From the IMG/VR virus record IMGVR_UViG_3300045988_003495: DNA of 64,000 nt; one strand, 5' to 3'. The position numbers were made by a program, and so were the translations under genes. Below the pieces are notes generated by a model. That model did no database searches. It had not been told where the DNA came from and saw only the letters and a list, made by a program, of their open reading frames with translations. Positions 17,735 through 64,000 of this stretch are shown piece after piece. How positions within the stretch are numbered: position 1 is the stretch's first letter; every line of letters begins with the position of its first letter. Source of the stretch: a virus. Its lineage: Duplodnaviria; Heunggongvirae; Uroviricota; Caudoviricetes.

Positions 17735-18781
17735 ATGGAGAAGTACACATTAACAAAACTTCCCGATTCAGTTACACATGTTTTTATTGACTCTGACAGC
17801 ATTGCCTATAAAGGTGCTTGTGTAGTTGAGAAAGCAAAATATAAATACGTCAATAAACTCACAGCAGAAGAATCTGAACCATTTGACAATGCGAAAGATG
17901 CTGCAAGATGGTTAGCAGACCAGAGAATCCTTGTGGAAGAACTTGGCCTGACATTTGATGAAGATGAATGGGAAAGACAGACTTGGAAAGAAGCTAAGAG
18001 TGAAAAAGAAGCTATCATGGCGACTCAACAGGTGCTTCAGGAATGGCTTAAGATTGTTGGTAAAGAAAGAACTTGGGTAGGCTATTTAACAGAGAAAGGT
18101 GTGCATAAACATAAAGACATTAAAGGTCTTGAGCACCAATATCAAGGGAACCGTAAAGATGCTGTCACACCAACACACTTAGTCGCTTGTCGTGAATACC
18201 TTTTATCCAGACCAGAGTTCAAGCTGATTCTTGATGGATTTGAAGCTGACTCTATCGTAATTGCTAAAGCTGAAAAGATGGGTAAAAAGGCTGCCTTAAT
18301 GAGTATTGATAAAGACCTTCGACAAGCTGAAGGTACTTACTGCATTGATATGACCTATGAAAAATCACCTTTAATTTTTATTGCTGATAACAACGTTGGT
18401 GAAATTTGGGATTGCCCAATAAAATCAACACCAAAAGCTAAGAAGACAGTTGGGGTAGGTTTTAAATTTCTTTGTTATCAAGCTGTGGCTGGTGATAATG
18501 CAGATAACTATTTTGGTTTAAAGGGCGTTGGTAAGGTTGCTGTAATGAAAGCCCTTGAAGGTAAAACTACTTACAAAGAGTGTCTTGATGCAATTTATGA
18601 GCTTTATGCTAAGAAAGAGTCATACACTTATGTCTCGTGGGATGGTCAAACAATTACCAGAACACCTTTAGAGTTAATGCAGCAACACTTTTTCTTAGCT
18701 TATCAGGAAAGAAATAAGAAAGATGATTTTACTTTTGATAAGTATGGGTGGACACCAAATGTTAACTCAACAAACTCTTAA
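17735..18781 (+). CDS. 5'-3' exonuclease (T7 gp6-like)
   Basis: N-terminal VTHVFIDSDSIAYKGA resembles the acidic active-site start of T7 gene 6-type exonucleases; 348 aa. Confidence 0.65.
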   Translation: MEKYTLTKLPDSVTHVFIDSDSIAYKGACVVEKAKYKYVNKLTAEESEPFDNAKDAARWLADQRILVEELGLTFDEDEWERQTWKEAKSEKEAIMATQQVLQEWLKIVGKERTWVGYLTEKGVHKHKDIKGLEHQYQGNRKDAVTPTHLVACREYLLSRPEFKLILDGFEADSIVIAKAEKMGKKAALMSIDKDLRQAEGTYCIDMTYEKSPLIFIADNNVGEIWDCPIKSTPKAKKTVGVGFKFLCYQAVAGDNADNYFGLKGVGKVAVMKALEGKTTYKECLDAIYELYAKKESYTYVSWDGQTITRTPLELMQQHFFLAYQERNKKDDFTFDKYGWTPNVNSTNS

Positions 18782-58749: not shown

Positions 58750-59121
58750 ATGAAAAACAGAACAAACAAAGGCCAGTTTAAAAAAGGCCAGTCTGGAAAC
58801 CCATCTGGAAGACCAAAAGGCTCTCGTAACAAAAGCTCACTCGTAAAAGCTCAACTGACCATTGATAATTCTGCTGAGTTCGCTGCAAAGCTGTTTGAGG
58901 CGATTGTTACAAGGGACGCGGCTAAGCTTGCAGAGTTCGGTTTAAACACAGATGACGTAACCATCAAGAGCATGATTGAGGTCGGTAAAACTATCTTTAC
59001 TCACTCAGCAGGTGAGATGAAAGCACTTGCAGCAGACACTAAGAAGACTCCTGATAATGGTGGTCAACAACAGACAGATAACAAACCAACGTTCTCTGCT
59101 GTAGCGACTCTCAAAAAATAA
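58750..59121 (+). CDS. hypothetical protein with N-terminal GQSGNPSGRPKG motif
   Basis: 123-aa ORF. Confidence 0.45.
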   Translation: MKNRTNKGQFKKGQSGNPSGRPKGSRNKSSLVKAQLTIDNSAEFAAKLFEAIVTRDAAKLAEFGLNTDDVTIKSMIEVGKTIFTHSAGEMKALAADTKKTPDNGGQQQTDNKPTFSAVATLKK

Positions 59122-59202: not shown

Positions 59203-60618
59203 ATGAGCGAATTATTTAAACATGCGCACCTTCATGCAGGTCGAACTGAAAATGGTGCTGTAAACCATACTTCATCAATGTCTGCTCTTGTAGACTTTTA
59301 CAAAGCTGCTGGTTCAAGCCGTAGCAATGTAGAAATCTTACCAGACCTGTTCTACAAAGCTTTGCGTGAGGATGTTGATGTTGCAGTCCGTATTTTACTG
59401 CATATGCGAGATGTACGAGAAGGTATGGGTGAGCGTAAAGCCTTCAGAACTGTTTTGCTTCAAGCAATTGAAGACAAAGTTTTAGAGCCTACACAGGTTC
59501 TTCGCATTATGGATAAGATTGCAGAGCTTGGTCGCTTTGATGACTTCAAAATCTTTGTAGGTACTCGTTTCGAGACAGATGCCTTCAAACATTTAGAAGC
59601 AGCATTACTAGACCCTGCAACAGCAGGTTTAGCAGCTAAGTGGTTACCACGAGTCAAACCACGTCATAAGCAGTTTGTAAAACGTTTCTGCAAGTTTGCC
59701 AACTTGAGTGAGAAAGAGTACCGCACACTGTTGTCTGCACTATCTGATACAGTTGAGCAAAAAATCTCTGCTAATGAGTTTGGTAAGATTGACTACAGCA
59801 AGATTCCTTCACTTGCTGCTGCACGTTACCAAAAACTGTTTAACCGTAAGGATGGAGAACGCTACAAAGCTTACATTGAGTCTTTATCAAAGGGCGAGGC
59901 TAAGATTAATGCTGGTGCTGTTTACCCATACGATGTGATTAAATCTGTCAAGCATGGTAATGCAGATGTTGCCAATGAGCAGTGGAAAGCACTACCAAAC
60001 TGGATGGCAGAAGGTGAGAACATCTTGTGTATGACTGATGTTTCAGGCTCAATGTCTTGGGTGAATCTTGGTTCAATCACTGCCCTTGATATTGGTGTAT
60101 CACTTGCCTTGTATGTAGCAGAACGTAATACAGGTTGCTTTAAGGATGAGTTAATGGTTTATTCAACAAACCCTTACTTCATCGAACTGAGTGGTGATTT
60201 ACGAAACCGCCATCGTCAGGTGATGCGACATGTTGAATATGGCTCAACTAACCTACAAGCAGCTTTTGACCGCATTCTTGAGGTAGGTAAGAGAAACAAC
60301 TTGACTCAGAAAGATATGCCAAGTAAGCTTATCATCTTCTCCGATATGGAGTTCAATCAGGTTGATGGAGCTAACGGTCGTACAAACTTTGAAGCAATTC
60401 AGAGTAAGTACAAAAAAGCTGGATACGAGATGCCACAACTGGTATTCTGGTACTTAGCAAACCGTAATGGTACTTGCGAAGTGTCTGTTAAGGATAACGG
60501 TGTAGCGATGGTATCTGGTTTCTCTCCAGCCACTTTAAAAGCTCTGATTGGTGGTGAGAAGTTTGACCCAATCAGCGTAATGCTCAAAGCAGTAATGATT
60601 GACCGTTATATCTGGTAA
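59203..60618 (+). CDS. vWA-domain protein with helical N-terminal domain; candidate Ro60-like (TROVE/DUF2828-type) RNA-binding protein
   Basis: 471 aa; MIDAS-type motif ILCMTDVSGSMSW (DxSxS) with downstream Thr and Asp; helical N-terminal half; sits directly upstream of Y-RNA-like elements in the tRNA cluster. Confidence 0.5.
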   Translation: MSELFKHAHLHAGRTENGAVNHTSSMSALVDFYKAAGSSRSNVEILPDLFYKALREDVDVAVRILLHMRDVREGMGERKAFRTVLLQAIEDKVLEPTQVLRIMDKIAELGRFDDFKIFVGTRFETDAFKHLEAALLDPATAGLAAKWLPRVKPRHKQFVKRFCKFANLSEKEYRTLLSALSDTVEQKISANEFGKIDYSKIPSLAAARYQKLFNRKDGERYKAYIESLSKGEAKINAGAVYPYDVIKSVKHGNADVANEQWKALPNWMAEGENILCMTDVSGSMSWVNLGSITALDIGVSLALYVAERNTGCFKDELMVYSTNPYFIELSGDLRNRHRQVMRHVEYGSTNLQAAFDRILEVGKRNNLTQKDMPSKLIIFSDMEFNQVDGANGRTNFEAIQSKYKKAGYEMPQLVFWYLANRNGTCEVSVKDNGVAMVSGFSPATLKALIGGEKFDPISVMLKAVMIDRYIW

Positions 60619-60636
60619 AAAGTTTTAAAAAGGGTA

Positions 60637-60665
60637 TTGACAATGTGTTTGATACCCTTTAATAT
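60637..60665 (+). promoter_or_regulatory. strong sigma70-type promoter (TTGACA-N17-TAATAT) driving the tRNA cluster
   Basis: -35 at 60637-60642, -10 at 60660-65; inverted repeat gggtat/ataccc flanks the -35 and spacer. Confidence 0.55.
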
Positions 60666-60783
60666 GTTCTACATAGAAACGAAACGAGAGCTTTTCTAAG
60701 ATACTGAAAAATATTTTAAAAAAGTTCTTGACAACCACTAAAAAATAATGTTAAAGTGGTTACATAGAGTTTGAAAAGTTTAT

Positions 60784-60950: not shown

Positions 60951-61027
60951 GACAGAAGACCAATTACAGCAAACTTAATCTTATTCATCTGAAGGTAAAT
61001 CGGACAAAGAAGAGATTTGGTCTGGTC
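60951..61027 (+). ncRNA. Y-RNA-like structured element A
   Basis: 5' motif gaCAGAAGACCaattACAGCAAac pairs with 3' motif tTTGGTCTGGt (agaccaa/ttggtct) enclosing about 55 nt. Confidence 0.45.
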
Positions 61028-61036
61028 ATTAAGAAT

Positions 61037-61113
61037 TGCGGGTATAGAGAAAGGGCGTCTCACATGTCTCATTAGCATGGTATCGGCAGGTTCGACTCCT
61101 GCACCCGCCTCCA
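61037..61113 (+). tRNA. tRNA with CAT anticodon (Met or Ile2 type)
   Basis: anticodon stem catgt/gcatg, loop ctcatta, D-stem gaga/tctc, T-arm gcagg-ttcgact-cctgc, CCA; 5' end ambiguous by 1 nt (possible 1:72 mismatch). Confidence 0.6.
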
Positions 61114-61116
61114 AAT

Positions 61117-61180
61117 TTACAGAAGACCGTATGCAGCAACAAACTACTTTTTGCGGATAAAAGAAAAAACACGGTCTGGC
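61117..61180 (+). ncRNA. Y-RNA-like structured element B
   Basis: 5' tACAGAAGACCGTatgCAGCAAcaaac pairs with 3' aacACGGTCTGGc. Confidence 0.45.
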
Positions 61181-61190
61181 AATGTATTAA

Positions 61191-61267
61191 GGTTAGGAAG
61201 CACATAAGGTATGTGCGGTCGCCTGTTAAGCGAATGGCACAGGGTTCGAATCCCTGACTAACCGCCA
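61191..61267 (+). tRNA. tRNA-Asn (anticodon GTT)
   Basis: acceptor ggttagg/actaacc, D-stem gcac/gtgc, anticodon loop ctgttaa, T-arm caggg-ttcgaat-ccctg, CCA. Confidence 0.7.
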
Positions 61268-61276
61268 AATTTAAAT

Positions 61277-61364
61277 GTGTCGTTATCCCGTAGATGGTAG
61301 CGGTGGGGACTGTAAATCCCTTGTCATTGAGACTCGGTAGGTTCGACTCCTACACGGCACACCA
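61277..61364 (+). tRNA. tRNA-Tyr (anticodon GTA), long variable arm
   Basis: acceptor gtgtcgt/acggcac, anticodon stem gggga/tccct, loop ctgtaaa, 15-nt variable arm, T-arm gtagg-ttcgact-cctac, CCA. Confidence 0.7.
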
Positions 61365-61386
61365 ACACTTAGCGAGATACTTAGTT

Positions 61387-61788
61387 ATGAGAGATGAAGT
61401 ATACAAATCACAACTTGGTATGAGTTTGGGAACTGCACAAAACAGACTAGTAAAAGATTTGCTATTCGATTTTATATGTAAGACAAATCAAAATAGATGT
61501 TTTCAGTGCGGAAAAGAAATGACTAGGGATGATTTCTCTATCGAGCATAAGACTCCGTGGAGACACAAAGATAATGCAAAAGAACTTTTCTTTTCACTAG
61601 ATAACATTTCTTATAGCCACCTGCGTTGCAACATGAAAGCAGCCAGACCAGCACAGATTTATGATAGAAAGCCTAAGCCAATTAAACACGGCACTGCACA
61701 CAGCTACTCTAAAGGTTGCAGATGTGATGAGTGTAGGCTGGCTAAGAATGCTGAGGGTAGGAAGCACTATAACCCCAGAAAGGCGTAG
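61387..61788 (+). CDS. HNH endonuclease inside the tRNA cluster
   Basis: CFQCGKEMTRDDFSIEHKTPW ... CRCDEC; ORF-track start 61294 overlaps tRNA-Tyr, so ATG at 61387 preferred. Confidence 0.55.
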   Translation: MRDEVYKSQLGMSLGTAQNRLVKDLLFDFICKTNQNRCFQCGKEMTRDDFSIEHKTPWRHKDNAKELFFSLDNISYSHLRCNMKAARPAQIYDRKPKPIKHGTAHSYSKGCRCDECRLAKNAEGRKHYNPRKA

Positions 61789-61820
61789 GAAGAAGTATTT
61801 AAGAAATGGCACATAGTTTT

Positions 61821-61896
61821 GGGGTATTAGTTTAGACGGTGAAAATACGGGATTATCTCTCCTGAGCCGCGAGTTCGATTCTCACATACCTCGCCA
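61821..61896 (+). tRNA. tRNA of undetermined identity (anticodon loop ttatctc, nominal anticodon ATC)
   Basis: good acceptor ggggtat/atacctc, D-stem gttt/aaat, T-arm gcgag-ttcgatt-ctcac, CCA; anticodon loop has pyrimidine at position 37 and A at 34. Confidence 0.5.
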
Positions 61897-61954
61897 ATTT
61901 TGAGAGGGCTATTTAGCCCCTCCCTTAAAGAGTTCTTACGAGTATCCTTTAAAG

Positions 61955-62034
61955 GAGCAGAAGACCAAATACAGCAAGTTACTTAAAATTTCAAGCCAAT
62001 TCAATTTTGAAAAATTTAAAACTTGGTCTGGCTC
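61955..62034 (+). ncRNA. Y-RNA-like structured element C
   Basis: 5' gCAGAAGACCaaatACAGCAAg pairs with 3' aaCTTGGTCTGGc. Confidence 0.45.
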
Positions 62035-62042
62035 AACAAATT

Positions 62043-62177
62043 TACAGAAGACCGTTTACAGCAAAACTTAAACAATCTATTTCTCGGTAAAGAAAAGGCG
62101 AAGGTTCGATTCCTTCACTCGGCAGATGTCGAGTTGGTGTAATGGTAGCACTTAAGATGATAAACAACGGTCTGGTA
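62043..62177 (+). ncRNA. Y-RNA-like element D with embedded circularly permuted tRNA-like module (YrlA-like)
   Basis: terminal helix agaccgtt (62047-54) with aacggtct (62165-72); inside: T-arm gaagg-ttcgatt-ccttc (62100-62116), acceptor-like helix actcggc-agat-gtcgagt closed by 4-nt loop (62117-62134), D-arm gtgt-aatggta-gcac (62137-62151); no anticodon arm. Confidence 0.55.
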
Positions 62178-62278
62178 ATTATCTTTGCAGTAGCTTATGT
62201 GGCTAATTATGTCGTCCCATGAGTGCCGATGAATTTCCTTAGCATGATTCTAGATTAGCTTAGTAGGAAATGACTCTA

Positions 62279-62299
62279 CAGACCCTTTAGCAAGGTCTG
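62279..62299 (+). ncRNA. minimal hairpin sharing the CAGACC...GCAA...GGTCTG motif
   Basis: cagacc-ctttagcaa-ggtctg. Confidence 0.3.
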
Positions 62300-62326
62300 C
62301 GTAGGTTACTGCAAAGGCAATTTAAT

Positions 62327-62485: not shown

Positions 62486-62560
62486 TGTGGGTTAGCATAA
62501 ATGGTAATGCAAACGGCTGATAACCGTTAGAAGAGGGTTCGATACCCTCACCTACAACCA
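62486..62560 (+). tRNA. tRNA-Ile (anticodon GAT)
   Basis: acceptor tgtgggt/acctaca, D-stem gcat/atgc, anticodon stem aacgg/ccgtt, loop ctgataa, T-arm gaggg-ttcgata-ccctc, CCA. Confidence 0.8.
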
Positions 62561-62575
62561 ATTTCAATAAAGTTG

Positions 62576-62604
62576 TTGACATTGATACGTGACTACTTTA
62601 TAGT
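62576..62604 (+). promoter_or_regulatory. internal sigma70-type promoter (TTGACA-N17-TATAGT)
   Basis: -35 at 62576-62581, -10 at 62599-62604. Confidence 0.55.
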
Positions 62605-62808
62605 AACCTTAGTTTTCGTTGCGTAGCGTCTATTTTGCAAATTTAAAATAAATGCAAACGACAATGTTTTTCTGGCAGTAGCTTGATAGGCTAAACACCA
62701 GTGAGGTCTTCCAATCCCTCATCAAAGAATTTGGCGTACTAGCCCACGGTATGATTAATAAGGTGGGCATCTTTAAGGGCTTTCTAAGAGAGTCTTTAAA
62801 GATAATTA

Positions 62809-62890
62809 CGGGGCGTATCTCAGCTGTCTTCTAAACAGCCGTTAACCGAGTAAGTGGAGTATGCGGGTTCGAGTCCTGCCGCCTCGACCA
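62809..62890 (+). tRNA. tRNA-like gene, possibly tRNA-Arg (anticodon TCT), atypical
   Basis: canonical anticodon arm gctgt-cttctaa-acagc, T-arm gcggg-ttcgagt-cctgc, acceptor cggggcg/cgcctcg, CCA; only 7 nt where D-arm should be, and about 23 nt between anticodon arm and T-arm. Confidence 0.35.
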
Positions 62891-63033: not shown

Positions 63034-63116
63034 GTGGGACGATGTTAAGACTCTAAGGCATGAGCAACGGCCTCCAAAACCGTTTCAAAGGGGTTCAACT
63101 CCTCCGTCCCATGCCA
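63034..63116 (+). tRNA. tRNA-like gene, possibly tRNA-Trp (anticodon CCA), atypical length
   Basis: acceptor gtgggac/gtcccat, anticodon stem aacgg/ccgtt with loop containing cca, T-loop ttcaact, CCA; D-region 6 nt too long. Confidence 0.35.
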
Positions 63117-63882: not shown

Positions 63883-64000
63883 ATTCAGAGGCCAAGTGAA
63901 AGACCGCTGGTGTCAACTGAAGACCGTAACAAATTCCACGGAGTTGAGTTAGCGGCACAACTTCAGACCTCTTTCATACTCGCTTAGTTTATATGGTAAA

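What the first reader, a model, noticed from the sequence alone, without database searches (positions are those of the whole stretch)
60951..62034. Elements A, B and C keep the conserved ends but vary in the interior
All carry CAGAAGACC + RWWT + ACAGCAA at the 5' side and GGTCTGG at the 3' side, but the 50-60 nt interiors are unrelated (A: cttaatcttattcatctgaagg...; B: a small cttttt/aaaag hairpin; C: an aaatttcaa/ttgaaaaattt hairpin). Conserved ends with free interiors suggests a common protein-binding helix carrying different effector modules, or processing signals. A miniature version (cagacc-ctttagcaa-ggtctg, 62279-62299) and a partial variant at the window edge (about 63915-63972, ctgaagaccgtaac...cttcagacc) suggest the family is larger.
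Basis: seen in the sequence. Interest (0 to 1): 0.6.

Follow-up and report, generated by a model that had tools for sequence, protein, structure and literature searches.

The report
Phage Y-RNA-like partners of Ro60-like protein
Four small structured RNAs hidden between the tRNA genes of this Felix O1-like phage share one stem-plus-UACAGCAA "handle" with different interiors, sit beside a Ro60-like protein gene in dozens of unrelated phages, and use the same handle as the enigmatic Class I RNAs of social amoebae.

Summary
Exact CAGAAGACC occurs four times in 64 kb, all on the + strand within 1.2 kb. Each element is a 7-8 bp terminal helix (AGACCRN/NYGGTCT), 2-3 nt, CAGCAA, a variable interior, then CUG. 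D's interior is a permuted tRNA mimic (V, T-arm, closed acceptor stem, D-arm), as in bacterial YrlA.

The gene directly upstream (59203-60618; Pfam DUF2828+DUF7788) has a predicted structure whose best full-length matches are Ro60 proteins. The same RNA grammar flanks this gene in 51 of 81 unrelated phage loci: 85 hits on the gene strand against 1 on the opposite strand within 1.5 kb. Two positions left free by the search covary (p = 5e-14).

Best reading: these are Y-RNA-like partners of a divergent Ro60, with one binding handle and interchangeable modules. Binding itself has not been shown.

They are not members of curated YrlA or Y RNA; the canonical GNCGAA motif is absent. The handle instead matches dictyostelid Class I RNAs (stem, UUACAGCAA, CUG), and a model built only from amoeba RNAs recovers the phage elements.

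The "miniature" and "edge" copies are not members.

The parts
59203..60618 (+). Gene for a 471-aa Ro60-like protein: an N-terminal helical-repeat domain (Pfam DUF2828) plus a C-terminal vWA-type domain (DUF7788) with an intact MIDAS signature. It is the orthologue of Bas63 gp130 and the proposed protein partner of the RNAs.
60637..60757 (+). Two sigma-70-like promoters (60637-60665 and 60728-60757) ahead of tRNA-Pro. They probably drive one precursor containing tRNAs and elements A-D.
   Evidence: Promoter scan, 10/12 matches each. No terminator-like site on the + strand between them and 62560. This is a consensus match only.
60957..61024 (+). Element A. Helix AGACCAA/TTGGTCT, then uua, CAGCAA, a 44-nt interior with a small hairpin, and a 3' CUG. 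It lies between tRNA-Glu and tRNA-Met.
   Evidence: The amoeba-only model R1 aligns 60958-61024 end to end at 14.8 bits, the top hit in 16 kb. Rfam RF01414 gives 19.7 bits. Present in all 8 Felix-like loci, with an invariant handle and a replaced interior in L007.
61124..61178 (+). Element B. Helix AGACCGU/ACGGUCU, then aug, CAGCAA, and a 31-nt interior with a hairpin presenting a GCGGA loop. It lies between tRNA-Met and tRNA-Asn.
   Evidence: R1 12.2 bits, rank 2. Relatives carry two interior alleles with compensatory hairpin changes and a conserved GCGGA loop.
61962..62030 (+). Element C. Helix AGACCAA/UUGGUCU, then aua, CAGCAA, and a 45-nt interior with an AU-rich hairpin. It lies downstream of tRNA-Asp.
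   Evidence: R1 11.3 bits, rank 4. The handle is invariant and the 5' part of the interior varies among relatives.
62049..62174 (+). Element D (not in the finding's coordinates). It has the same handle (AGACCGUU/AACGGUCU, ua, CAGCAA ... CUG) around a permuted tRNA mimic: V hairpin about 62077-62099, T-arm 62100-62116 (GAAGG-UUCGAUU-CCUUC), closed acceptor-like stem 62117-62134, and D-arm 62136-62152 (GGUGU-AAUGGUA-GCACU).
   Evidence: MFE fold -32.5 kcal/mol, z = -2.1, with exactly these four hairpins inside the closing helix. A partial tRNA match covers the T-arm and 3' acceptor strand. The order V-T-AS-D equals that described for YrlA. Nearly invariant in 8 relatives. R1 10.8 bits over 62050-62174.
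62279..62299 (+). The 'miniature' hairpin CAGACC-CUUUAGCAA-GGUCUG. It is the apical hairpin of a larger conserved structured spacer (62177-62326). It may be a degenerate relative or a minimal site, and is not counted as a member.
   Evidence: It lacks the CNGCAA core and has no interior. It is conserved in relatives as CAGACC-TTAAGCAA-GTCTGG. The outer helix of the 150-nt element shows a compensatory change.

Best explanation
A, B, C and D are small non-coding RNAs of the Y-RNA kind: modular RNAs that partner with the Ro60-like protein encoded directly upstream.

**Shown.** Each RNA closes its 5' and 3' ends into a 7-8 bp helix with a conserved G-C pair near its base. The helix is followed on the 5' side by an unpaired (U)UACAGCAA and on the 3' side by CUG.

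**Inferred.**
- This shared handle is the docking site for the Ro60-like ring.
- The interior is a free module. D carries a tRNA-elbow mimic as in YrlA; A-C carry short hairpins as in YrlB. The modules would gate the protein or tether it to other factors or substrates.
- The RNAs are made as part of the tRNA operon transcript from the promoters at 60637 and 60728. They would be released by the tRNA-processing nucleases that cut the flanking tRNAs, then trimmed back to the helix.
- The ribonucleoprotein acts in RNA surveillance or counter-defence during infection. The orthologous protein in Bas63 neutralises the ppl defence system.
For: 1. The motif is non-random and clustered.
2. The upstream ORF has a Ro60 fold, covering both ring and vWA domain, with an intact MIDAS signature.
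3. The RNA grammar is tied to this gene across phages. In 81 non-Felix loci (912 kb) there are 109 hits on the gene strand against 8 on the opposite strand, and 85 against 1 within 1.5 kb; shuffles give about 4 per strand.
4. The structure is real. With sites chosen by linear motif alone, 86/175 near the gene have the complementary strand against 20/402 elsewhere (p = 6e-34). Positions -1 and X, which were not constrained, covary: A-U 70, U-A 14, other 4 (p = 5e-14). There are 57 different stem sequences among 88 elements.
5. Modularity. 18 of 84 interiors carry a T-loop, others are short hairpins or other recurring modules. Arrays occur downstream of the gene in Klebsiella phage KP13-26 (two short, two tRNA-like, one other) and Mycobacterium phage Whirlwind (short, tRNA-like, short).
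6. The tRNA-like members get significant sub-threshold matches to Rfam YrlA over the T/AS/D core (40.1, 32.5 and 38.3 bits).
7. In Felix-like phages the handles are invariant and the interiors change.
8. The literature establishes that Ro60 proteins, including phage ones, bind adjacent Y RNAs through a terminal stem, and that one Y RNA per genome mimics tRNA (PMC4201824; PMC12135203).
Against: - No binding or expression data exist for these RNAs, so the protein-RNA pairing rests on gene linkage and analogy.
- The canonical Ro60-binding motif (GGUCCGA / GNCGAAN0-1G / CGAA) is absent. Curated Y_RNA and YrlA models do not reach threshold, and D gets no YrlA hit at all.
- The protein has no sequence-level TROVE match.
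- gp130 alone, expressed from a plasmid or from T7 without these RNAs, rescues T7 on ppl. At least that activity does not need them.
- 30 of 81 loci lack a strict element within 1.5 kb, although several have one further away or overlapping the gene start.
- Single-sequence folding z-scores of A-C are unremarkable (-0.5 to -1.2).
Confidence: 0.7

Rival explanations
1. They are stable structured RNAs with this handle, but the handle is read by a different protein (a host factor, or another phage protein such as the DUF5681 protein at 58750-59121). Linkage to the Ro60-like gene would then reflect co-regulation or a shared pathway, not direct binding.
For: The only demonstrated direct binder of the look-alike amoeba Class I RNAs is an RRM protein, Rnp1A/CIBP. 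gp130 works against ppl without the RNAs. The canonical Ro60 motif is absent.
Against: The linkage is tight, strand-specific and spans phages of Actinobacteria, Firmicutes, Campylobacterota and Proteobacteria whose only shared neighbour is the DUF2828 gene. Elements often start 26-36 nt after its stop codon. Stems are more alike within a genome than between genomes (2.75 against 1.95 of 5 positions), as expected if they co-evolve with a phage-encoded reader. Co-occurrence of DUF5681 was not tested.
Confidence: 0.15
2. They are only spacer and processing signals of the tRNA precursor (RNase P/E/Z guides) and leave no functional product.
For: In this window they lie between tRNAs, 8-12 nt from tRNA ends, inside one probable transcription unit.
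Against: The same elements flank the gene in loci with no tRNA within 6 kb (L010, L012, L016, L017, L019, L021, L022) and in Whirlwind as a tRNA-free array ending in a terminator. Most tRNA junctions in this same cluster have no such element. The interiors carry conserved modules: D is nearly invariant and B keeps its GCGGA loop through compensatory changes.
Confidence: 0.05
3. They are DNA-level repeats, such as MITE-like inverted-repeat elements, recombination sites or homing-endonuclease targets, which would explain shared ends and swapped interiors.
For: Terminal inverted repeats with replaceable interiors. An HNH endonuclease gene (61387-61788) is inserted in the same cluster and is variably present. 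The interior of A is replaced wholesale in L007.
Against: - Orientation is strictly that of the neighbouring gene, 85 to 1.
- The conserved CAGCAA and CUG are asymmetric and on one strand only.
- G-U pairs are tolerated in stems.
- Interiors contain T-arm and D-arm RNA modules.
- There are no target-site duplications or extra copies elsewhere in the 64-kb window.
Confidence: 0.03
4. They are tRNA-like decoys or sponges that act on their own against host tRNA-targeting defence nucleases, independently of any Ro60-like RNP.
For: They sit in a tRNA cluster and D mimics the tRNA elbow. The neighbouring protein is a counter-defence factor.
Against: Only D has tRNA-like features. A-C and most family members (66 of 84) have none, yet they keep the handle. 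This does not explain the conserved handle or the gene linkage. It is compatible with the main explanation as a module function.
Confidence: 0.07

Closest known systems
Bacterial and phage Y RNAs of the YrlA/YrlB type (Rfam RF02553; Chen et al. 2014, PMC4201824)
   Same: - Encoded within a few kb of, and on the same strand as, a Ro60-fold protein gene.
- The 5' and 3' ends close into a stem next to a short conserved motif.
- One RNA per genome carries a permuted tRNA mimic in the order V, T, closed acceptor stem, D (element D).
- Shorter paralogues lack it (A-C, like YrlB).
- The tRNA-like cores of relatives score 32-40 bits against the YrlA model.
   Different: - The handle differs: stem plus (U)UACAGCAA plus 3' CUG instead of GNCGAAN0-1G.
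- No element reaches the YrlA gathering score (69 bits), and D gets no hit at all.
- The partner protein belongs to the DUF2828/DUF7788 clade, not Pfam TROVE.
- Up to five or six paralogues occur per genome, here embedded in a tRNA operon.
Dictyostelid Class I RNAs (Rfam RF01414; Kjellin et al. 2021, PMC7919456)
   Same: The grammar is the same:
- a roughly 6-bp terminal stem whose sequence varies while pairing is kept;
- an invariant 5' G paired to the C of a conserved 3' CUG(U);
- an unpaired CCUUACAGCAA immediately 3' of the 5' strand;
- a free interior;
- many paralogues per genome.

Some amoeba members also carry a T-arm (asu_can_20, ppa_can_99). A model built only from 31 amoeba RNAs recovers phage elements at their exact ends. 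25 of 38 amoeba RNAs fit the phage-derived grammar.
   Different: - Curated threshold not reached (13-25 bits against 41.5).
- Phage spacing from G to CAGCAA is 9 nt, against 10 nt in most amoeba RNAs (9 nt in a minority).
- Phage helices include one extra A-U pair below the G.
- Amoeba genes are independent units with a DUSE promoter; the phage ones sit in a sigma-70 tRNA operon.
- The known direct binder in Dictyostelium is an RRM protein, and no link to a Ro60-like protein has been reported.
- The paper concluded the class is unique to Dictyostelia.
Thermus phage phiLo Ro60 with Yrl1/Yrl2 (PMC12135203; PDB 9KOP, 9L5Y)
   Same: A phage-encoded Ro60-fold protein with two or more adjacent Y-RNA-like genes. 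The protein is among the top structural matches of the window's ORF. A counter-defence role has been proposed for it.
   Different: phiLo Ro60 is a recognisable TROVE protein, and its RNAs carry the CGAA motif in an internal bulge. No CAGCAA handle and no tRNA-operon context are described there.
Metazoan Y RNAs (Rfam RF00019)
   Same: A terminal stem as the Ro60 docking site plus a variable loop module that recruits other factors, with several paralogues per genome.
   Different: The conserved bulged helix GGUCCGA/UUGACC is absent, and there was no Rfam match at E<=10.

Membership tests
Y RNA (functional class: Ro60-associated modular ncRNA) | Encoded near a Ro60 orthologue, on the same strand | tested here: met
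   85 gene-strand hits against 1 opposite-strand hit within 1.5 kb in 81 loci. In the window the elements lie 340-1560 nt downstream of the gene on the same strand.
Y RNA (functional class: Ro60-associated modular ncRNA) | The partner protein is a Ro60 (TROVE helical-repeat ring plus vWA/MIDAS) | tested here: inconclusive
   Met at fold level: the top 11 Foldseek hits are all Ro60, full length, and the MIDAS residues are invariant. Not met at sequence level: no Pfam TROVE hit and no PDB sequence or profile hit.
Y RNA (functional class: Ro60-associated modular ncRNA) | A terminal stem formed by the 5' and 3' ends that carries the conserved Ro60-binding motif (GGUCCGA, GNCGAAN0-1G or CGAA) | tested here: not met
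   The terminal stem is present and covaries, but the motif is (U)UACAGCAA plus CUG, not CGAA-type.
Y RNA (functional class: Ro60-associated modular ncRNA) | Physically bound by Ro60 in cells | not testable with these tools
   Needs RIP/CLIP or EMSA.
YrlA (Rfam RF02553) | Score at or above the curated gathering threshold (69 bits) | tested here: not met
   Element D gets no YrlA hit at E<=10, even when searched alone. Relatives in KP13-26 and Whirlwind score 40.1, 32.5 and 38.3 bits.
YrlA (Rfam RF02553) | A tRNA-like domain in the order V, T-arm, closed acceptor stem, D-arm, inside the terminal stem | tested here: met
   The MFE and centroid folds of D give exactly this order, with a canonical T-loop UUCGAUU and a GG-containing D-loop. 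The architecture is as described.
Dictyostelid Class I RNA (Rfam RF01414) | A short terminal stem joining the 5' and 3' ends, with a conserved 5' G paired to the C of a 3' CUG(U) | tested here: met
   All four window elements and 84 near-gene elements in other phages fit. The features are as defined.
Dictyostelid Class I RNA (Rfam RF01414) | An 11-nt motif CCUUACAGCAA directly 3' of the 5' stem strand (T, C, C, A, A nearly invariant) | tested here: met
   A and D have UUACAGCAA, C has AUACAGCAA and B has AUGCAGCAA. Family-wide: U at +7 88%, A at +10 90%, CNGCAA throughout. The spacing is 1 nt shorter than in most amoeba RNAs.
Dictyostelid Class I RNA (Rfam RF01414) | Score at or above the curated gathering threshold (41.5 bits) | tested here: not met
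   Window A 19.7 bits and D 13 bits; KP13-26 25 and 23.5 bits. With my amoeba-only model R1 the window scores 10.8-14.8 bits and other phages up to 25.2 bits, E = 1.4e-4.
Dictyostelid Class I RNA (Rfam RF01414) | Independent genes with a DUSE promoter about 60 nt upstream; length 42-65 nt | tested here: not met
   The phage elements lie in a tRNA operon behind sigma-70-like promoters. Predicted lengths are 68, 55, 69 and 126 nt.
tRNA | A cloverleaf with anticodon arm, recognised by tRNA finders | tested here: not met
   ARAGORN calls none of A-D. Rfam tRNA gives only a partial 16.7-bit match to D's T-arm and acceptor strand.

The most novel reading that the evidence does not exclude
The phage elements and the Class I RNAs of social amoebae (and possibly single candidates in plants, which also encode DUF2828 proteins) would be one ancient RNA family. 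Its stem-UUACAGCAA-CUG handle would be the docking site of the DUF2828/DUF7788 branch of Ro60-like proteins.

Class I RNAs would then be a Y-RNA system rather than an invention specific to dictyostelids. The uncharacterised protein DDB_G0281243, pulled down with Class I RNA DdR-21, or another amoeba DUF2828 protein, would be their Ro60-like partner.
Probability: 0.4. Interest if true: 0.9.

Novelty: new variant of a known kind. Interest (0 to 1): 0.78.

Why it matters
1. It identifies the missing RNA partners of a very common phage protein: 710 cultured-phage records and more than 3,500 protein clusters. That protein was recently shown to defeat a bacterial defence system. The authors could only guess that some tRNA genes might be Y RNAs; the real candidates are unannotated spacers, partly mis-annotated as tiny ORFs.
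2. It defines a second, distinct Ro60-type handle (stem, UACAGCAA, CUG) that is simple enough to search for and to mutate.
3. It shows natural module swapping on a fixed handle, which could be useful for engineering RNA scaffolds.
4. It makes a 20-year-old open question directly testable, namely what dictyostelid Class I RNAs do and why they exist, by pointing to a Ro60-like RNP. The same applies to the eukaryotic DUF2828 proteins of plants, which have no known function.

Tried and rejected
- Rfam at gathering threshold found only tRNAs. E-value scans gave no Y_RNA or YrlA hit in the window.
- Sequence and profile searches of the protein against PDB sequences found nothing. Only the fold comparison revealed Ro60.
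- Exact-motif search (GAAGACC) in distant loci found nothing, because the stem sequence is phage-specific.
- Two early structural patterns were too permissive and were discarded:
  - a 6-bp stem plus CNGCAW gave 116 window hits against 40-84 in shuffles;
  - a 5-bp stem plus a T-loop gave 85 hits on the gene strand against 75 on the opposite strand.
- The amoeba-only model with default filters missed A-D and gave one spurious 16-bit hit in a coding region, 18501-18552 on the minus strand. It needed filters off.
- The window scores with that model (10.8-14.8 bits) are within the noise range taken individually. Only their exact coincidence with the four elements, and the stronger hits in other phages, carry weight.
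- Identity of DDB_G0281243 and presence of DUF2828 in Dictyostelium could not be established. The afdb50 library was unavailable, Avesson 2011 is not held, supplements are silent, and literature searches were empty.
- Chen 2014 supplementary phage tables and the Wolin reviews are not held. I therefore cannot exclude that a few DUF2828-type mycobacteriophages were in their set.
- The miniature hairpin and the edge variant were rejected as members.
- Explanations based on type III toxin-antitoxin, retron, CRISPR or group I intron systems were considered. None has support: there is no cognate gene, and the repeats are neither tandem nor identical.
Full report
**1. What is in the sequence**

The window is a Felix O1-like phage (Felixounavirus; 369 related phage records). 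The finding lies in its tRNA cluster (15 tRNAs called).

Exact CAGAAGACC occurs four times (60953, 61120, 61958, 62045), always on the + strand, and nowhere else on either strand of the 64 kb. AGACC-N5-CAGCAA marks the same four sites.

Each element pairs AGACCRN with NYGGUCU. The inner pair covaries between paralogues (AA/UU in A and C; G/C in B and D). All four fold with that closing helix.

The interior of D folds into a small hairpin, a canonical T-arm (GAAGG-UUCGAUU-CCUUC), a stem closed by a tetraloop, and a D-arm with a GG loop. That is a tRNA body permuted so that the anticodon stem is replaced by the closing helix.

**2. The neighbour**

The ORF ending 340 nt upstream (59203-60618, 471 aa) matches only Pfam DUF2828 plus DUF7788 and PHROG 850, "RNA-binding protein". 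It has no sequence-level match to solved structures, even with a 37-sequence profile.

An AlphaFold2 model built with that alignment is confident (pLDDT 87). Its 11 best Foldseek matches in the PDB are all Ro60/TROVE proteins: Xenopus and human Ro60, D. radiodurans Rsr, and Thermus phage phiLo Ro60. They align over the full length, covering both the helical ring and the vWA domain (E about 1e-8, TM 0.5-0.66).

The MIDAS residues (DxSxS...T...D) are invariant in the family.

**3. The family across phages**

The protein occurs in 710 cultured-phage records. Hosts include Escherichia, Salmonella, Mycobacterium, Vibrio, Listeria, Staphylococcus, Campylobacter, Enterococcus, Bacillus and Aeromonas. 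Some mycobacteriophage copies are already labelled "Ro-like RNA binding protein". Six distant representatives are all DUF2828+DUF7788, never Pfam TROVE.

I fetched 80 viral-contig loci and 7 cultured-phage loci.

Orphan T-loops next to the gene led to a shared layout, which I reduced to a strict grammar:
- a G;
- at least 6 bp of stem (at most one G-U);
- C[ACU]GCA[AU] starting 9-10 nt after the G;
- a 15-175 nt interior;
- the complementary strand, ending in the C that pairs with the G, then [AU]G.

| Test | Result |
|---|---|
| 81 non-Felix loci (912 kb) | 109 hits on the gene strand, 8 on the opposite strand; shuffles about 4 per strand |
| Within 1.5 kb of the gene | 85 against 1 |
| Loci with at least one strict element within 1.5 kb | 51 of 81, up to six per locus, upstream or downstream |
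| Window | 7 hits (A-D plus three in coding sequence) against about 0.75 in shuffles |

Two tests are free of selection on structure:
- With sites chosen by the linear motif alone, 86/175 near the gene on its strand have the complementary strand, against 20/402 elsewhere (p = 6e-34).
- The base before the G and the base after the closing C, which the grammar left free, covary almost perfectly: A-U 70, U-A 14, other 4 (p = 5e-14).

Unconstrained positions are also conserved: A at -1, 81%; U at +7, 88%; A at +10, 90%. There are 57 different stem sequences among 88 elements.

The consensus handle is A-G-stem-n-U-A-C-A-G-C-A-A ... stem'-C-U-G.

**4. Modularity**

Interiors range from 10 to 160 nt, and 18 of 84 carry a T-loop.

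- Klebsiella phage KP13-26 has an array of five elements downstream of the gene: two short, two tRNA-like and one other.
- Mycobacterium phage Whirlwind has three (short, tRNA-like, short), followed by a terminator and with no adjacent tRNA gene.
- Other interior types recur across loci.

Among nine Felix-like genomes all four elements are present in the same order with invariant handles:

| Element | Interior among Felix-like genomes |
|---|---|
| D | Almost invariant |
| A | Replaced wholesale in one phage (L007) |
| B | Two alleles with compensatory hairpin changes around a conserved GCGGA loop |
| C | Varies 5' of its hairpin |

**5. Comparison with Y RNAs**

Chen et al. 2014 describe YrlA as: 5' Ro-binding motif GNCGAAN0-1G, then V, T, closed acceptor stem and D, encoded within 4 kb of Ro60 on the same strand, with shorter paralogues such as YrlB. 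Their search covered only genomes with an annotated TROVE protein. Thermus phage phiLo Ro60 binds two adjacent Y-like RNAs carrying the CGAA motif.

Element D shares the architecture and context.

The tRNA-like relatives in KP13-26 and Whirlwind give significant but sub-threshold YrlA matches (40.1, 32.5 and 38.3 bits against a threshold of 69). These matches cover only the T/AS/D core, not the YrlA stem. D itself gets no YrlA hit.

So these RNAs work like Y RNAs but are not members of the curated families. Their handle is different, and it goes with a different branch of the Ro60 fold.

**6. An unexpected relative**

The short elements weakly hit Rfam RF01414, the Class I RNAs of Dictyostelium. 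According to Kjellin et al. 2021, those RNAs have:
- a 6-bp terminal stem of variable sequence;
- an invariant 5' G paired with the C of a conserved 3' CUGU;
- an unpaired 11-nt motif next to the 5' strand;
- a free interior;
- dozens of paralogues per genome.

Their own sequence files show the motif is CCUUACAGCAA, for example DdR-21 GUUGAC-CUUACAGCAA-...-GUCAAC-UG. That is the phage handle. Two amoeba members even carry a T-arm in the interior (asu_can_20, ppa_can_99).

I built a covariance model from 31 amoeba RNAs only.
- With filters off it ranks A, B, C and D 1st, 2nd, 4th and 5th in 16 kb of searched sequence. Each aligns end to end at the predicted boundaries, though at modest scores of 10.8-14.8 bits.
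- In four distant cultured phages, 6 of its 7 hits with E<=1 are elements beside the Ro60-like gene, up to 25.2 bits and E = 1.4e-4.
- With default filters it misses them.

Reciprocally, 25 of 38 amoeba RNAs satisfy the strict phage grammar, as does an Arabidopsis candidate that the paper dismissed.

Differences:
- the phage G-to-CAGCAA spacing is 9 nt, against 10 nt in most amoeba RNAs;
- the curated threshold is not reached;
- promoters and gene organisation differ.

[quoted passage not shown] No held paper links them to Ro60 or Y RNAs.

A pull-down with DdR-21 recovered an RRM protein (the direct binder), two metabolic enzymes, and DDB_G0281243 of unknown function. I could not determine whether that protein, or any dictyostelid protein, belongs to the DUF2828 family.

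**7. How it most likely works**

*Shown:*
- conserved, covarying terminal helix;
- conserved single-stranded UACAGCAA and 3' CUG;
- strand-specific linkage to a Ro60-fold gene;
- modular interiors.

*Inferred:*
- The Ro60-like ring docks on the handle, and the interior modules gate the ring or tether it to partners or substrates. D presents a tRNA elbow to tRNA-binding factors.
- In this phage the RNAs are transcribed with the tRNAs from the promoters at 60637 and 60728. They would be released by tRNA-processing nucleases and trimmed back to the helix.
- The RNP serves RNA surveillance or counter-defence.

*Caveat:* gp130 alone rescues T7 on ppl, so the RNAs are not needed for that activity. 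They may regulate the protein or retarget it.

**8. Rivals**

- Another protein reads the handle (0.15).
- Autonomous tRNA decoys (0.07).
- Mere tRNA-processing spacers (0.05). This is contradicted by tRNA-free loci.
- DNA-level repeats (0.03). This is contradicted by strict strandedness and RNA-type modules.

**9. The two extra candidates**

The hairpin at 62279-62299 is conserved in relatives, but it lacks CNGCAA and has no interior. It caps a larger conserved 150-nt structured spacer (62177-62326).

The edge element (63883-63975) is a separate conserved spacer with its own helix, AGAGGYC/GACCUCU. It has no CNGCAA and no matching 3' strand.

Neither is a member.

**10. Verdict**

Novelty: a new variant of a known kind. 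These are Y-RNA-like partners of a divergent Ro60 clade with a distinct handle, and they have not been annotated or described in the literature I could search. The possible unity with amoeba Class I RNAs is the most novel reading. It is supported at the RNA level and untested at the protein level.

Noticed in passing
window 62177-62326: A conserved, structured spacer of about 150 nt between element D and tRNA-Lys. It has a long outer helix with a compensatory change (GCAG/CUGC here, GUAG/CUAC in five relatives). The 'miniature' hairpin is its apex. No Rfam match.
   Followed up: partly
window 63883-63975: A spacer between tRNA-Thr and tRNA-Val that is 95% conserved among Felix-like phages. It has an outer helix AGAGGYC/GACCUCU and an inner hairpin CUGAAG/CUUCAG. 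It shares the 9-mer GAAGACCGU with B and D, so it may be a remnant of an element's 5' half. RefSeq annotates a 60-aa ORF across it.
   Followed up: partly
window 62809-62887: A tRNA-like sequence (Rfam tRNA 31.2 bits, just above threshold in the sensitive scan; anticodon loop cuUCUaa, i.e. Arg) that ARAGORN misses because of an insertion. Bas63 annotates a tRNA-Arg at the syntenic place.
   Followed up: no
window 63036-63110: A second unannotated tRNA-like sequence with a good T-arm and acceptor stem and a possible CCA anticodon. The model score is weak (23 bits against the tRNA-Sec model).
   Followed up: no
window 62503-62807: Weak matches to permuted tmRNA (32.4 bits, threshold 47) and to tmRNA. 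A near-consensus promoter lies at 62576-62604 (11/12), ahead of about 200 nt of unannotated sequence.
   Followed up: no
window 61387-61788: An HNH homing-endonuclease ORF inserted between tRNA-Tyr and tRNA-Asp. About half of the close relatives lack this stretch (85% query coverage), so it is a mobile insertion inside the tRNA/Y-like RNA operon.
   Followed up: partly
L088 2428-2979 (Listeria phage LMTA-34): A near-threshold ROOL RNA match (88.5 bits against 99.1) lies about 1 kb upstream of that phage's DUF2828 gene. Three handle-type elements sit in between, and an RtcB RNA ligase gene lies 1.3 kb downstream. This looks like a dense RNA-centred neighbourhood.
   Followed up: no
L009 3134-3233, L011 150-281, L014 1411-1519, L015 1266-1374: A recurring interior module (...gaaccuuucuggaggggaaagcaaaaacucgccaaa...) sits on the same handle in four different viral contigs. 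A separate module of about 160 nt recurs in L039, L053, L059, L068 and L080. Their functions are unknown.
   Followed up: no
Supplement of PMC7919456 (ath_can_1): An Arabidopsis locus, GUUUUC-AUUACAGCAA...GAAAAC-UG, scored 40 bits with the authors' Class I model and was dismissed as isolated. It fits the strict phage grammar exactly. The literature I searched reports DUF2828 proteins in plants.
   Followed up: partly
window 60629-60660: A 12-bp hairpin directly after the Ro60-like gene's stop codon overlaps the first tRNA-operon promoter (the -35 box is in the loop region). It may be a terminator/promoter overlap coupling the gene and the RNA operon.
   Followed up: no
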